Made by a program: the position numbers and the translations under genes
Assembly: GCA_964016885.1 (NCBI GenBank)
Contig: OZ024740.1
Coordinates: 118,792,001 to 118,856,000 of the forward strand
Origin: Eledone cirrhosa
Taxonomy: Eukaryota
DNA: 64,000 nt
Reading direction: 5' to 3'
Shown: positions 19,450 to 56,742 of the stretch, one piece after another
How the letters are laid out: the number at the start of each line of letters is the position of its first letter
How positions within the stretch are numbered: position 1 is the first letter of the stretch
Notes under the pieces: generated by a model
Told to the model about the DNA's origin: nothing
Databases searched by the model: none
Seen by the model: only the letters and a program-made list of their open reading frames with translations

Positions 19450-20432
19450 ATATGTGTTTACATAGTTGTATCAGTATTAGGAAATGGTATTTGTAAGAAA
19501 GAAGGCTAAATTATGTATTTTAATATAAGTAGAATATTAATGATAGGTTAATTAAAGTAAAAATAGTTAATATATTAATTTCTAAGGTGTATACTACTTA
19601 GGTTTATAATATTTAAAGCGGAATTTTGAAGTTAAACAGTAGTAGAGTATTAATTATAGCATAACTAAATTAAAAATAATTACATATATTAACATGATGG
19701 TATCAATTTTAGGAAATTAATTTTGTAATAGGGAAAGCCAAATTAAGTATTTCATCGGTAGTAGAATATTAATTATAGGTTAACTAAATTAAAAATTATA
19801 TATTAATTTCTATAGTATATGTTAATTAGGTTTATAATAATTAAAGCAACATTTTGTATTTTATCTATAGTAGAATTTTAATTATAGGTTAACTAAATTA
19901 AAATTAATCTATATATTAATTTGTAAAGAGTATATTAATTAGGTATATATTAAAAAGTTTTTCTCAGTTTATGATTACACGATATTCTGCAATCCATCTG
20001 TATTAGAATTTTAATTATAAGCTAACTAAATTAAAATTATAGGTTAACTAAATTAAAATTAATTTATATATTAATTTCTAAATTGTATATTAATTAGGTT
20101 TATAATATTAAAAAGTATTTCTCCGTCATTAATTACACGATATTTTGTTGTATTTCATCTGTAAAAGAATTTTAATAAAAGGTTAAATAAACTAAAATTA
20201 ATCTATATATTAATTTCCAAAGTATATATTAATTATGTTAATAATATTTAAATGTTTTTCACAGTTTATGATTATACGATATTTTTTAATTTCATCTGTA
20301 GTAGAATTTTAATTAAATTAAAATTATAGGTTAACTACATTAAAATTAATTTATATATTAATTTCTAAAATATATATTATTAATTAGGTTTATAATATTT
20401 AAATGTTTTTCTGAGAAAAACATTTAACTGCA
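19450..20432. repeat. Degenerate AT-rich tandem repeat (~120-140-bp unit)
   Basis: Recurring gtagtagaat(a/t)ttaattataggttaactaaattaaaatta...taattaggtttataata, about 7 copies. Confidence 0.75.
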
Positions 20433-41788: not shown

Positions 41789-42132
41789 GGAGGCACATGG
41801 CTTAGTGGTTAGAGCATTGGCCTTGCAATCGAAAGGTTGTGAGTTCAATTCTCAGACCGTGTGATGTGTTGTTTCCTTGAGCAAGACACTTTATTTCACA
41901 TTGCTCCAGTTCACTCAGCTGTAGAAATGAGATGGGGTCCCTATCATTCGCTGCAAAGTGGTCGTGGAGGTGCCACGGAAAAAAAGCACCCAGCACTCAC
42001 TGTAAATGAGGCTGGTGTTAGGAAGGGCATCCAGCAGTAGAAATCAAGCCAGAATCAGTTCCTGTCCCACCCTTGCAAGCAGGGAAAAAGCGGACGTGAA
42101 ATGAAATGATGATGATGATGATGATGATGATG
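41789..42132 (+). mobile_element. tRNA-derived SINE with RTE 3' tail, full length
   Basis: A-box tggcttagtgg, B-box gttcaattc, core ccttgagcaagacactttatttcac, then a 3' part matching the RTE 3' UTR and (GAT)n. Confidence 0.88.
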
Positions 42133-51556: not shown

Positions 51557-51898
51557 GGAGGCACATGGCTTAGTGGTTAGAGCATTGGCCTTGCAATCGA
51601 AAGGTTGTGAGTTCAATTCTCAGTCTGGGTGATGTGTTGTTTCCTTGAGCAAGACACTTTATTTCACATTGCTCCAGTTTACTCAGCTGTAGAAATGAGA
51701 TGATAGGGACTGGGGTCCATATCATTCCACTGCAAAGTGGTCGTGGAGGTGCCACGGCAAAAAAGCACCCAGCACTCACTGTAAATGAGGTTAGTGTTAG
51801 GAAGGGCATCCAGCTTTAGAAATCAAGCCAGAATTAGTTCTCGTCCCACCCTTGCAAGCAGGGAAAAGCGGACGTAAAATGATGATGATGATGATGAT
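51557..51898 (+). mobile_element. tRNA-derived SINE with RTE tail, full length
   Basis: Near-identical to 41789-42132. Confidence 0.88.
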
Positions 51899-52271: not shown

Positions 52272-52450
52272 TATATATATATATATATACTAGAATTGGT
52301 GCTCTGAAATAGCGATGTATATATGAATGTATATATAGTGTATTTGGTAATATATTGTATGCTTAATTAAAAGCATTTTGAAGACCTTACACTATTGTTT
52401 GAAAGTAGTGACTATGTCACTTACTTCTTTTTTCAACAAACAAAGGGAGA

Positions 52451-52498
52451 TAAGCTGACAGCTCTTTGTTTCATACTGTTAATATTCCTCAGAGCTTA
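52451..52498 (-). ncRNA. Type I hammerhead ribozyme (C3-G8 core)
   Basis: taagct-CTGAGGA-atatt aac agtat-GAAA-ca aagagc tg-TC-agctta. Confidence 0.83.
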
Positions 52499-52848
52499 AT
52501 ACTCCCCTTGTTTGTTGAACATTATGAAAGTTGGATACTTATAGAATTTCAGTAATAATCAGGAACTGATTATACAGAGCGGTTGCCTTTTGCTTGTTGA
52601 AAAAAGAAGTAAGTGACATAGTCACTACTTTAAAACAATAGCGCAAGGTCTTCAAAATGCTTTTAATTAAGCATACATCGTATTACCAAATACACTATAT
52701 ATACATCGCTATTTCAGAACACCAATTCTAAATTTTTTATTTTTGCTGGACTGGCAATCGCTCTGTATATTCAGTTCCTGATTATTACGCGAATTCTATA
52801 AGAATCCAACACTCAGAATTTTCAACAGACAATGCGAGTCGAGTACTA

Positions 52849-52892
52849 AGTTCTGAGGAATACCAACATTATGAAACAGAGATCTGTCAGCT
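52849..52892 (+). ncRNA. Type I hammerhead ribozyme (C3-G8 core)
   Basis: agtt-CTGAGGA-ata ccaacat tat-GAAA-cag agat ctg-TC-agct. Confidence 0.75.
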
Positions 52893-53159
52893 CATCTCAC
52901 TTTATTTGTTGAAAAAAGAAGTAAGTGACATAGTCACTACTTTAAAACAACAGTGTAAGGTCTTCAAAATGCTTTTAATCAAGCATACAGTGTATTACCA
53001 AATACACTATATATACATTTATATATATATGTATATATTTATTAAAATAACAGATTAAAGTGTAAGCAAAGAATCGATGCTTTCACCCTTAACGGGATCT
53101 TCTGATATATAATTATCCTTATCGAGACCTCTTTGGATTTTAGTCTTCACATTTATTAT

Positions 53160-53251
<92 letters not shown>

Positions 53252-53254
53252 AGT

Positions 53255-53291
<37 letters not shown>

Positions 53292-55499
53292 CAGTATTTA
53301 CGTATCGAGAAAGAGTAAAAAAGGGGAGGATAGGTAATACATATAGTTATTTTCCAAGTAGCGTATGCCAAAGGTGCTCAATACTAGTGCCGGCAGTATT
53401 AAATATTCGAAGTGTTAATATTTAGTGGGCTAGAGAGTTAGCAGAGCGTAAGCACGTGGGAAAGTAAAAAATCGGAGAATAGACCGTTAAAACATGTTTA
53501 TTTAAAACAGCACCTACGTACGTTTCGCCCAGTTGGGCTTCTCAAGGGCATAAATAATCAAAAGTGTTCCTTATATTGCTCGGAAAGAGTTTTGGGGGTT
53601 AAATCCACATCAAGGTTCATTGCTCGCAAAAATAGCCTGTTTTGATTTTGCAGCAGGTCAGGGAGGTAACTCTGGCCGGTGTTAGAGCAGTCTTTCCCGG
53701 ACAAACTTTTTTTTTTTTTTTTTTTGCCGCATATGTTTGTCTGAGGCTGGGTCTGGTATGCAAGGATTGTTTCCTGGGGTGTTATTTTGCAGCGCCTGCC
53801 CGCCGGGGTGTTAAGACTTGTTGCAGGGAGATCCGGTGTACGGTTTCACTCCTCATCCTTAACACATCTGAAGAAGGATATTTTTAAGCGAAGTGTACAA
53901 CTTATCGCTGTTTCAGCTCTGCTGTTGATGAGCTCGGGGGTGCAGTTATGATGTGGTAGAGCTCCATGAGGCAAATATCGCATTTCCTCTTGAAGTTGTA
54001 CGGTGCAGCCCTGCCGACAATCTCCCAGTGCGTGGAGATGCTGATGTTTAAGTCCGCTGATGTAGTCCGCGAAGTGATGTGATGTGATGTAGAGCGAAGT
54101 GGAGTGCCTTAGATTTCTATTTGTGAAAGAGTGGAGATGTGTTCGAAACCTAATTTTGAACGGGCCGGAGGTAGCCCCTATATAATGTTTAACGCTATTG
54201 TGGCTAGTAATAGTGCATCTATATATAACCCTATCAGTCAAGCAGTATCCTCTAAGGGGGCAGCGTCCTCTGTGGCGGCAGTTGCAATTTCTGTCGCAGT
54301 TCCGTCTATTTCCCACGGTAAGGCTATCATTGTTGCTGCCTACGTTGTTACCTACGCTACCGCAGCTGTCGTTAGCACCATTACAACCCACAGCACGCTG
54401 GGTGGTGCGATTGTTATTCCGCACGTCATGTCCTGCATGTTCCCCAGTCATTTCGCGGTTATGCTAGTTGCGTCTGCGGATGCCGTTGCCAACACTATTG
54501 GATGCTTCCAGGGAGTTGTTAAGGCCGATATAGTTATTGTCAGGTGTAGGTGCGTCTGTGTCGAGGTGCTGTGTCTTGGTGATCTTACTGTGGTTCGTTG
54601 TTCCTATGATGTCTGCTAGGTTAGGAGTGGTAGAGAAGGATATTTTTATATTGTTCCTATTAAGAATTTTTCTATACCTATGGTTGGGCAGGAAGTTCTT
54701 CTCTAAGGCTTCAAAGAACATCCGGGGTATGTTGGAGACCACACTCCGAGAGTAGGGGGGTGGAACCCTAGGACGTTGCGGTGGTGATTACGTGTCCTTG
54801 TACTTTTGCTACAGGTGGTTCCATCTAGGTGACCGCTCTTATGTGTGTTAATGCACAGTCGCCCGTTCGGTGCCCCTTTCACTTTATGCTCGAGTGCACT
54901 CTTCCTACCTCCTCCATGTTTATGTACACGAAGATGTTGGTTGGAAGGCGTTGGTAGTAGGCCGTCGCCTTTGTTGGTTTTGTAATAGGGGAATAGTTCG
55001 AGTAATCTACAGTTCACCGTCGCCGGGGTCGTGATCTTTAGTGCGGTTATCTATTCTATTATATCCGACTTCAACGAGGTCGGCGCGCGATCGGTTATAG
55101 GTTTGGCTTACTATAACGTTCGTTTTATGAGGGGGGTGGTTTCTAGAGCTAGCCTTAGGGATGTAGGAAATTCCTCGGTTAAAGCCGGCGCTTATCAAGG
55201 CCCTATTGTAGTAATCCGCCGCTTGGTTGAAGATATCCTCATTGGCGGATAGCCTCGAGATTCTATGTGAGATACTATGCACTATGGAGTTGAGAGTCTG
55301 CTTAGAGTCGTTGGAGGCATAATTAATATAAGAGAGGCACTCTTCAGGCTTATGGTATGGCTTGTATAAGCCCGCACTCAACTCAAGGGTCACGTTCAGG
55401 AAGTTGACAACCCTGTGGTTGAGGTCCATAGTTACGGATAGGGCGTATGTCTTGAAGAACCTGTGTATATGTTTGTTAAGGTTCTCTATCCTACGGGGG

Positions 55500-55500
<1 letters not shown>
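53292..55500 (-). mobile_element. Penelope-like element, 5'-truncated (RT thumb, CxC linker, GIY-YIG, 3' pseudo-LTR)
   Basis: VNFLNVTLELSAGLYKPYHKP, HRYRKILNRNNIKISFSTTPNL and CNCRHRGRCPLRGYCL..VIY..YIG..FKIRFRTH, frameshifted. Bounded by (TA)n on both sides. Confidence 0.9.
53510..53550 (-). ncRNA. Minimal type I hammerhead ribozyme, U3-A8 variant, in PLE 3' region
   Basis: gccc-TTGAGAA-gccc aact gggc-GAAA-cgtacg-TA-ggtgc, with a palindromic stem III. Confidence 0.75.
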
Positions 55501-55574
<74 letters not shown>

Positions 55575-55729
55575 TTGGAGCTCTGAAATAGCAATATATA
55601 TATGGATGTATATATAATGTATTTTGCAATACACTTTATGCTTAATTAAAAGCATTTTGAAGACCGTAAGCTATTGTTTTAAAGTAGTGACAAATTCACT
55701 CACTTTGATCTCAGCAAACAGGGGAGATA

Positions 55730-55773
55730 AGCCGACATGACATGTTTCGCTTTGGTTGAAGCTTATCAAGGCC
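55730..55773 (-). ncRNA. Type I hammerhead ribozyme, U3-A8 variant (unit 1)
   Basis: ggcc-TTGATAA-gctt caacca aagc-GAAA-cat gtc atg-TC-ggct. Stem I extends imperfectly out to ttgatctcag/ctgagatcaa. Confidence 0.83.
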
Positions 55774-56045
55774 AACTACCCCACCTGTCTACTGAGATCA
55801 ATGATGTTATATTCTTATAGAAATCTAGTAAATAATCAGGAGCTGATTATGCAGAGCGGTTGTTGGTCAGGCAGAAATTAAAAATTAGAATTGGAGCTCT
55901 GAAATAGCAATATATATATGGATGTATATATAATGTATTTTGCAATACACTTTATGCTTAATTAAAAGCATTTTGAAGACCGTAAGCTATTGTTTTAAAG
56001 TAGTGACAAATTCACTCACTTTGATCTCAGCAAACAGGGGAGATA

Positions 56046-56089
56046 AGCCGACATGACATGTTTCGCTTTGGTTGAAGCTTATCAAGGCC
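56046..56089 (-). ncRNA. Type I hammerhead ribozyme, U3-A8 variant (unit 2)
   Basis: Identical to unit 1, shifted +316 bp. Confidence 0.83.
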
Positions 56090-56361
56090 AACTACCCCAC
56101 CCGTCTACTGAGATCAATGATGTTATATTCTTATAGAAATCTAGTAAATAATCAGGAGCTGATTATGCAGAGCGGTTGTTGGTCAGGCAGAAATTAAAAA
56201 TTAGAATTGGAGCTCTGAAATAGCAATATATATATGGATGTATATATAATGTATTTTGCAATACCCTTTATGCTTAATTAAAAGCATTTTGAAGACCGTA
56301 AGCTATTGTTTTAAAGTAGTGACAAATTCACTCACTTTGATCTCAGCAAACAGGGGAGATA

Positions 56362-56405
56362 AGCCGACATGACATGTTTCGCTTTGGTTGAAGCTTATCA
56401 AGGCC
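56362..56405 (-). ncRNA. Type I hammerhead ribozyme, U3-A8 variant (unit 3)
   Basis: Identical to unit 1, shifted +632 bp. Confidence 0.83.
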
Positions 56406-56552
56406 AACTACCCCACCTGTCTACTGAGATCAATGATGTTATATTCTTATAGAAATCTAGTAAATAATCAGGAGCTGATTATGCAGAGCGGTTGTTGGTC
56501 AGGCAGAAATTAAAATTGGAGCTCTGAGATCAAAGTGAGTGAATTTGTAGTT

Positions 56553-56596
56553 GGCCTTGATAAGCTTCAACCAAAGCGAAACATGTTATGTCGGCT
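56553..56596 (+). ncRNA. Type I hammerhead ribozyme, U3-A8 variant (inverted unit)
   Basis: ggcc-TTGATAA-gcttcaaccaaagc-GAAA-catgttatg-TC-ggct, read directly on the + strand. Confidence 0.83.
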
Positions 56597-56709
56597 TATC
56601 TCCCCTGTTTGCTGAGATCAAAGTGAGTGAATTTGTCACTACTTTAAAACAATAGCTTACGGTCTTCAAAATGCTTTTAATTAAGCATAAAGTGTATTGC
56701 AAAATACAT

Positions 56710-56742
<33 letters not shown>

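What the first reader, a model, noticed from the sequence alone, without database searches (positions are those of the whole stretch)
52291..53018. Sister locus shows a compensatory C3-G8 <-> U3-A8 swap in the catalytic core and rewritten stems
Seen: the same repeat family (shared tagaattgg.gctctgaaatagc, aaagcattttgaagacc, taatcagga.ctgattat) has the HHR at the homologous position. Here the core is CTGAGGA (52451-52498, 52849-52892) versus TTGATAA in the 55.6-kb array, so positions 3 and 8 changed together. Stems II and III differ in sequence (atatt/agtat vs gctt/aagc; ca..tg and cag..ctg vs cat..atg) but still pair. Established: nucleotides 3 and 8 form a Watson-Crick tertiary pair needed for catalysis. 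Inference: covariation within one family means selection for cleavage.
Basis: partly seen in the sequence, partly recalled or inferred. Interest (0 to 1): 0.82.

Follow-up and report, generated by a model that had tools for sequence, protein, structure and literature searches.

The report
Hammerhead retrozyme family with core swap
This locus is a decayed copy of a multi-thousand-copy animal jumping element carrying a hammerhead ribozyme motif, whose lineage swapped one core base pair once (C-G to U-A) while keeping its stems paired, a known kind of change that likely reflects selection for self-cleavage on the spreading source copies.

Summary
Both loci are type I hammerhead motifs at the same place in one ~316-nt repeat family (79% identical units). 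Genome-wide the 3/8 pair is C-G in 641, U-A in 2250 and mismatched in 36 of 2927 copies (1021 expected if independent). A tree made without the ribozyme columns is a ladder of subfamilies on which the swap happened once, from older C3-G8 to younger U3-A8. Along that ladder the 10 invariant core columns never change, and about 10 stem pairs change on both sides, including a palindrome pair that fits a dimer, not a hairpin. Inserted copies decay neutrally (core 2.5% vs flank 2.8%), and both hammerheads at 52291-53018 have private broken pairs. So selection acted on the transposing source RNAs, not on this locus. Insertions show Penelope-type marks: (TA)n targets, head-to-head arms, a tail on one end. 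This is a non-LTR retrozyme, and natural U3-A8 covariation is already published (PMC3088659, PMC4209133). Cleavage and expression were not shown here. What is new is the unusually clear stepwise record of ribozyme evolution.

The parts
52291..52590 (-). Left arm of a C3-G8 (my subfamily 'A1') retrozyme insertion; about one unit, ending at the long (tailed) 3' end next to a (TA)n tract
   Evidence: L216 is this locus
52451..52498 (-). Type I hammerhead copy 1: C3 52492, G8 52487, predicted cleavage between 52457 and 52456; private changes in stem II/loop 2 and a broken 15.4-16.4 pair
52586..53030 (+). Inverted right arm (head-to-head with the left arm), starts 12 nt after a cleavage site, runs through one ribozyme, ends at the short 3' end
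52847..52895 (+). Type I hammerhead copy 2: C3 52853, G8 52858, predicted cleavage between 52888 and 52889; broken 10.4-11.4 pair and one broken stem I pair
53160..53291 (.). (TA)n tract at the 3' end of the neighbouring Penelope-like element
53295..55500 (-). 5'-truncated, frameshifted Penelope-like element (end of the RT region plus GIY-YIG-like endonuclease); a separate family without sequence likeness to the retrozyme unit
53505..53552 (-). Minimal hammerhead of the Penelope-like element, also U3-A8 (core TTGAGAA at 53545-53539), palindromic stem III
55501..55569 (.). (TA)n target tract of the U3-A8 array
55570..56515 (-). Three tandem 316-nt units of the young U3-A8 subfamily ('B1'); cores at 55769, 56085, 56401; predicted cleavage after 55734, 56050, 56366
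56547..56732 (+). Inverted 5'-truncated arm of the U3-A8 array with a fourth ribozyme (core at 56557), ending in (TA)n

Best explanation
The locus is a decayed genomic copy of a ~316-nt protein-less repeat with a type I hammerhead motif, likely a non-LTR retrozyme spread by Penelope-like element enzymes, and the C3-G8 versus U3-A8 difference is a single compensatory swap in its source lineage, likely kept by selection for self-cleavage. Shown here: thousands of dispersed copies, a ladder of subfamilies, one swap, an unchanged core, paired stem changes, neutral decay after insertion and Penelope-type insertion structure. Inferred: tandem units are transcribed; two ribozymes pair through their palindromic stem III (double hammerhead), helped by a loop 2 / stem I bulge contact, and cut out unit-length RNA that is probably circularised. 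A Penelope-type endonuclease/RT then nicks (TA)n DNA, primes at an AU-rich tract of the unit and reads on through the cleavage site, giving head-to-head arms of one to several units. Only RNAs that keep a working fold seed new subfamilies.
For: Counts 641 / 2250 / 22 / 14; the mismatched classes are no commoner than single transitions at the invariant U4 (15) and A9 (14) (chi-square P 0.43). No G3-C8 or A3-U8 subfamily: 1 match, misregistered. Flank-only tree of 142 rows is a ladder; 1 change between C-G and U-A; divergence of copies falls from 6.6% (oldest C-G group) to 1.1% (youngest U-A group). Core 0 changes in 10 columns vs 96 in 207 flank columns; 8 scored compensated pairs and 2 more at 15.4-16.4 seen in alignment A1. 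Covariation score 0.462 vs 0.236 in shuffles and at most 0.09 when slid. The one tolerated break is U10.1·U11.1, which PMC3088659 names as the best-tolerated mismatch. Stem III is self-complementary in all 13 groups (self-duplex -8.6 to -20.1 kcal/mol, hairpin -1.8 or weaker). Loop 2 ends in A and an unpaired U follows stem I in the commonest forms of all 13 groups. Decay in 61 anchor-chosen copies: 5' core 9 of 366 vs flank 358 of 12822, P 0.87. Architecture: 172 of 212 arms end at one of two 3' points, 146 of these 172 run into (TA)n, and 52 of 80 head-to-head junctions join a tailed and an untailed end, 0 two tailed ends, as described for PLE insertions (PMC8557442).
Against: No cleavage or RNA was observed. 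5' truncations do not pile up at the cleavage site (rate ratio 1.07, P 0.42, 261 events in 397 arms). An A9G core variant sits in both arms of two separate insertions, so a core-damaged template can still be copied. In one type III hammerhead only the G3-C8 swap rescued activity and other double mutants there were weak (PMC9901934), so U3-A8 need not be fully active. Only 1 of 9 predicted Xenopus retrozyme dimers cleaved in vitro (bioRxiv 2026.07.22.740005). Equilibrium folding of a natural two-unit transcript gives only 0.018 for the inter-unit A15.1-U16.1 pair (0.0 within a unit). Rfam gives no match at gathering score. Tree support is moderate (4 of 138 branches starred; U-A side 85), and subfamilies were assigned by hand, partly from ribozyme letters. 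No autonomous partner sharing the unit's sequence was found.
Confidence: 0.85

Rival explanations
1. The fold is selected, but not (or no longer) for cleavage: the hammerhead shape is a recognition or packaging signal for the Penelope-type protein, and the template is an uncut multimeric transcript.
For: Flat truncation hazard across the cleavage site; A9G template copied into two loci; low in vitro activity reported for PLE minimal hammerheads (PMC4209133).
Against: A binding-only role need not keep G5, A6, G12, the NUH site, the 3-8 pair and the tertiary-contact letters all unchanged while the stems are rewritten. A circular template also predicts a flat hazard. Coral, mussel and axolotl retrozymes cleave and give circles (PMC7229834).
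Confidence: 0.08
2. The units are the pseudo-LTRs (3' ends) of an autonomous Penelope-like element, seen mostly as 5'-truncated copies, not an independent non-autonomous element.
For: Same insertion marks as the neighbouring PLE family: (TA)n target, inverted arm, two 3' ends. A PLE origin of retrozymes is proposed in bioRxiv 2026.07.22.740005.
Against: 62 of 212 arms run past one unit into another unit, not into coding sequence. Only 15 of 224 loci have PLE protein remnants nearby, at varying distance and orientation. No likeness to the adjacent PLE, and 0 of 29 other copies of that PLE's 3' end have a unit beside them.
Confidence: 0.04
3. The paired changes are an accident of descent: two founders happened to differ at 3 and 8 and were amplified without selection on RNA structure.
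For: The 3-8 swap is a single event; by itself P is about 0.016.
Against: 8 scored compensated pairs over 10 steps, reached by 0 of 200,000 scatterings, and an unchanged core.
Confidence: 0.02
4. This particular locus is kept by the host as a functional ribozyme.
For: Both cores at 52486-52492 and 52853-52859 are intact.
Against: Both copies carry private pair-breaking changes, each strand has only one ribozyme so no unit can be cut out, and copies family-wide decay at the neutral rate.
Confidence: 0.01

Closest known systems
Metazoan non-LTR retrozymes (coral, mussel, axolotl; Cervera and de la Peña 2020, PMC7229834; Li et al., bioRxiv 2026.07.22.740005)
   Same: 150-450-nt tandem units, GC under 50%, one type I hammerhead per unit, thousands of copies, several subfamilies per genome, no ORF, PLEs in the same genome. 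The axolotl HHR_Amex2 also has a U·U at the base of stem II.
   Different: New sequence family. Here the insertions show (TA)n targeting and head-to-head arms with a one-sided tail, and the dominant young lineage has U3-A8. The passages I read report neither a subfamily ladder nor a 3-8 swap inside a retrozyme family. Expression and circles are untested here.
U3-A8 hammerhead variants in nature (Perreault et al. 2011, PMC3088659; Schistosoma mansoni Cercyon PLE minimal hammerheads, about 1,300 hits, PMC4209133)
   Same: Same covariation of the core 3-8 pair; in S. mansoni both forms occur in one genome's PLE-related repeats.
   Different: Here it lies in a canonical-size ribozyme with a long stem I and can be placed on one branch of a dated ladder, with neighbours on both sides (same stem II before and after the swap).
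Dolichopoda pDo500 and newt satellite-2 hammerhead repeats (PMC2837043)
   Same: Repeat-borne hammerhead with conserved core, compensatory stem changes and a proposed double-hammerhead mode.
   Different: Those are satellites compared across populations. This family is dispersed, and its non-core ribozyme columns change faster than the flanks, not slower.
Penelope-like elements with C-terminal GIY-YIG endonuclease (PMC8557442)
   Same: Insertion structure (partial tandems, inverted 5'-truncated arm, 30-40-bp tail at one end, microsatellite bias) and type I hammerheads.
   Different: The unit has no ORF. The PLE beside it is a different family with its own minimal U3-A8 hammerhead.

Membership tests
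Type I hammerhead ribozyme | Core C3 U4 G5 A6 N7 G8 A9, G12 A13 A14, A15.1-U16.1, H17 at a three-way junction with stem I open | tested here: met
   U3-A8 in place of C3-G8 in the B lineage, a published natural variant
Type I hammerhead ribozyme | Stems I, II, III supported by compensatory changes | tested here: met
   8 of 16 pairs with change on both sides; 93.8% of cells paired in 26 copies
Type I hammerhead ribozyme | Letters for the loop 2 / stem I tertiary contact (last A of loop 2, unpaired U1.7) | tested here: met
   (letters present; three groups carry one extra U in stem I); contact described in PMC11875169; the contact itself is inferred
Type I hammerhead ribozyme | Self-cleavage at the NUH site | not testable with these tools
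   needs an in vitro assay
Rfam hammerhead families (clan CL00010) | Score at or above the gathering threshold | tested here: not met
   no match at gathering score; HH9 27.6 bits vs 52, E 0.00078, on the four U3-A8 copies only
Non-LTR retrozyme | Short (150-450 nt) units in tandem, one type I hammerhead each, no ORF, many copies | tested here: met
   (7,840 matches to a 27-nt flank anchor)
Non-LTR retrozyme | [quoted passage not shown] | tested here: met
   met by the array at 55570-56515; not met by the locus at 52291-53030, which has one ribozyme per strand
Non-LTR retrozyme | Highly self-paired unit RNA | tested here: met
   circular fold -76.4 kcal/mol, z -4.4 against 60 shuffles; branched rather than rod-like
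Non-LTR retrozyme | Expressed as linear and circular unit-length RNA | not testable with these tools
   no RNA holder listed
Non-LTR retrozyme | Target-site duplications longer than 4 bp when present | not tested
   insertions lie in (TA)n tracts where duplications cannot be read
Penelope-like element pseudo-LTR | Lies at a fixed position directly after an RT/GIY-YIG ORF | tested here: not met
   tested on 224 loci only, not the whole genome

The most novel reading that the evidence does not exclude
The family is a single-lineage fossil series of a ribozyme under active turnover. Its stems and dimer palindrome are rewritten faster than the rest of the element (38 changes in 36 non-core ribozyme columns vs 96 in 207 flank columns; P 0.014 with paired changes counted once) because each new subfamily gains by changing the palindromic stem III that sets its dimer partner, escaping pairing with, or silencing triggered by, the many older copies. 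The U3-A8 swap would be one step of this and would have retuned cleavage rate in favour of the now dominant lineage.
Probability: 0.2. Interest if true: 0.65.

Novelty: new member of a known kind. Interest (0 to 1): 0.36.

Why it matters
The element type and the U3-A8 variant are both known, so the finding as stated is not surprising. Its value is as a test set. One genome holds an ordered series of about 13 natural ribozyme versions, with near-identical neighbours on either side of a catalytic-core swap and intermediate forms (a U·U at 10.1-11.1, an extra A before G12). That makes it possible to measure how a ribozyme crosses a two-step change and whether retrozyme success tracks cleavage rate. 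The insertion structure also adds direct support for the idea that Penelope-type enzymes move animal retrozymes.

Tried and rejected
1. 5' truncation as a fossil of in vivo cleavage. A first look suggested arms ending at the cleavage site (27 ends at +0 to +19 vs 9 in the 20 nt before). A hazard analysis correcting for exposure removed it (ratio 1.07, P 0.42; A-type 1.25, B-type 0.72). Rejected.
2. First tree included non-homologous flanks and scattered the U3-A8 copies (7 changes); rebuilt on trimmed arms without ribozyme columns.
3. An amplified mismatched intermediate: 4 of the 22 C3·A8 matches have the stem II of the subfamily just before the swap, too few to call.
4. The adjacent PLE as parent of the unit: best matches 13 nt or shorter.
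5. Pfam on four PLE ORF pieces gave no relevant family and none for P0001; the PLE call rests on the homologue with a precomputed PF26215 hit, an atlas lead (GIY-YIG on 11% of one cluster's members) and recalled motifs.
6. Expression: no RNA holder listed; contigs of four runs of unrecorded kind cover the unit but say nothing on expression.
7. Equilibrium folding does not favour the active fold; tertiary contacts are not modelled.
8. Earlier scan notes: nothing found.
9. Przybilski and Hammann 2007 and Martick and Scott 2006 are not held; I know them only as cited in PMC3088659 and PMC9901934. R-scape was not available.

Full report
Observation. The window holds two insertions of one repeat family 2.5 kb apart. 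The locus of the finding (52291-53030) has two head-to-head arms, each with one type I hammerhead motif, core CTGAGGA (C3 52492 and G8 52487 on the minus strand; C3 52853 and G8 52858 on the plus strand). The array at 55570-56732 has three tandem 316-nt units and an inverted arm, core TTGATAA. The units align at 231 of 292 columns with the ribozymes in register.

Family size and the 3/8 table. A 27-nt flank anchor has 7,840 matches with at most one mismatch in the 3.0-Gb genome; these are arms or units, not loci. With one shared 3' pattern the core pair is C3-G8 in 641 copies, U3-A8 in 2250, C3·A8 in 22 (2 of them misregistered by a deletion, read by eye) and U3·G8 in 14. Independence would give 1021 mismatched of 2927. 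The mismatched classes are as rare as single transitions at the invariant U4 (15) and A9 (14), so they look like decay. No transversion swap exists (1 misregistered match).

How many events. I cut 209 complete ribozyme-centred units from the fetched loci and kept one per locus (142 rows). A tree built without the ribozyme columns is a ladder (quick IQ-TREE, 4 of 138 inner branches starred, backbone SH-aLRT mostly 82-97). Among the 124 rows with C-G or U-A it needs one change (support 85, not starred). I grouped rows by hand into 13 subfamilies (names are mine; grouping used the ribozyme letters as well as the tree). Mean flank divergence from each group's commonest letters falls from 6.6% in the C-G group at one end to 1.1% in the U-A group at the other, so C3-G8 is the older state. 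The order is not strictly monotonic in the middle (3.2%, 4.6%, 4.3%), partly because many A1 copies were top search hits. The swap lies between two groups with the same GTAC/GTAC stem II; on that step N7, loop 2 length and loop 3 also changed. The window's two loci are near opposite ends of this ladder, which is why their stems look rewritten.

Selection on the source lineage. Over the 10 steps between the 11 groups with three or more copies, the 10 invariant core columns change 0 times, flanks 96 times in 207 columns, and the other ribozyme columns 38 times in 36. Eight changes hit both partners of a named pair and keep pairing: 2.1-1.1, 3-8, 10.1-11.1, 10.2-11.2 twice, 10.3-11.3, 10.4-11.4 and the inner palindrome pair of stem III. 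None of 200,000 random scatterings reached eight. That script also scored 4 breaks: one is real (A10.1 to U, giving U·U), the rest follow from gap placement in loop 3. Two more compensations at 15.4-16.4 are visible in alignment A1. On 26 representative copies (2 per group, chosen as least mutated) 93.8% of cells pair and the covariation score is 0.462, against 0.236 in shuffles and at most 0.09 when partners are slid (related sequences inflate the shuffle test). The 3-8 swap alone has a chance of about 0.016.

No selection on inserted copies. In 61 copies chosen by a flank anchor, the 5' half of the core differs from the subfamily at 9 of 366 cells and flanks at 358 of 12,822 (P 0.87). The locus of the finding has one ribozyme per strand and cannot release a unit by double cleavage.

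Likely mechanism. In all 13 groups the stem III segment is a perfect or interrupted palindrome: self-duplex -8.6 to -20.1 kcal/mol, hairpin -1.8 or none. The inner pair changes A-U to G-C although it would close a loop of 0-2 nt in cis, which points to a double hammerhead, as described for metazoan type I motifs (PMC4209133, passages). Loop 2 ends in A and an unpaired U follows stem I in the commonest forms throughout, the letters of the known Hoogsteen contact (PMC11875169, passages). The U10.1·U11.1 subfamilies use the mismatch reported as best tolerated (PMC3088659, passages). Insertions look PLE-made: 172 of 212 arms end at one of two 3' points about 28 nt apart, 146 of those 172 run into (TA)n, and of 80 head-to-head junctions 52 join a tailed to an untailed end, 1 two untailed, 0 two tailed, and 27 involve another end (compare PMC8557442, passages). 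62 of 212 arms are longer than one unit and truncation risk is flat across the cleavage site, which fits a circular or uncut multimeric template and not a cut linear monomer. Transcription, cleavage, circularisation and the identity of the helper are inferred.

Results against. No truncation peak at the cleavage site. An A9G variant is present in all four units of one insertion and both arms of another, so a damaged core can be copied. In a type III hammerhead scanned by pairwise mutagenesis only the G-C swap rescued this pair (PMC9901934, passages). Only 1 of 9 predicted Xenopus retrozyme dimers cleaved (bioRxiv 2026.07.22.740005, parts 1-3 of 5 read). Thermodynamic folding does not favour the active fold. 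Rfam gives only a sub-threshold HH9 match.

The neighbour. Between the loci lies a broken Penelope-like element (53295-55500, minus). A homologue with a precomputed PF26215 hit matches its RT-end, linker and endonuclease regions, and the atlas gives a GIY-YIG lead; the likeness to the Neptune clade is recalled, not tested. It is a young family (at least 2,469 candidates), also inserted in (TA)n, and its minimal hammerhead is U3-A8 in 36 of 36 matches from 30 loci picked for likeness to the window copy. It shares no sequence with the unit, so it is a possible helper, not the parent. The host looks like an octopod genome (size, microsatellites, tRNA-derived SINE); this is recalled resemblance only.

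Comparison with what is known. Non-LTR retrozymes with type I hammerheads are described from corals, mussels and axolotl (PMC7229834, parts 2-3 of 6 read). Natural U3-A8 covariation was reported in 2011 (PMC3088659) and in about 1,300 S. mansoni PLE motifs (PMC4209133). Compensatory changes in a repeat-borne hammerhead are known from cave crickets (PMC2837043, passages). Searches for cephalopod hammerheads or retrozymes listed no paper on them, and an Octopus repeat annotation has no occurrence of 'ribozyme' in its main text (PMC13282606). Supplements were not read and subscription papers are not covered, so the family may be listed somewhere. PMC2920678 (part 1 of 2) was read for background.

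Verdict. A real feature and a new member of a known kind. The swap is a single, already documented type of compensatory change. The stepwise record around it is the part worth following up. Interest 0.36.

Noticed in passing
window 53295-55500 (-): Young Penelope-like family (at least 2,469 candidates) whose minimal hammerhead is also U3-A8; same (TA)n targeting and two alternative 3' ends as the retrozyme. Two unrelated hammerheads in one genome both use U3-A8.
   Followed up: partly
L059 / L182 (G000:C1:57406040-57407005) and G000:C2:114798633-114799116: A9G core variant shared by all units and both inverted arms at two separate insertions; shows that both arms copy one RNA species and that a core-damaged template can be mobilised.
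   Followed up: partly
L193:413-672, L090:818-1077, L161:1887-2146, L201:1296-1555: Subfamilies with an extra A between C11.1 and G12 and an extra U in the 3' strand of stem I, gained and later lost on the ladder.
   Followed up: partly
L089:1410-1669, L133:540-799, L086:1410-1669, L119:884-1143: Subfamilies with a U·U mismatch at 10.1-11.1 that amplified and later returned to A-U, then G-C.
   Followed up: partly
alignment A1 columns 3-48 (about window 52541-52587): A ~45-nt hairpin-forming stretch upstream of the ribozyme is almost unchanged across all subfamilies; a candidate promoter or helper-protein binding site.
   Followed up: no
L097 (G000:C1:87803600-87806750): A second place where a C3-G8 insertion and a U3-A8 array lie about 2 kb apart in microsatellite-rich DNA, without the PLE between them: co-location reflects shared (TA)n targets.
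   Followed up: partly
window 51565-51624 and 41795-41863 (+): Two tRNA-like matches just above the Rfam threshold, heads of a tRNA-derived SINE ending in (ATG)n.
   Followed up: no
window 19508-20412: AT-rich degenerate tandem repeats of 113-155 nt period.
   Followed up: no
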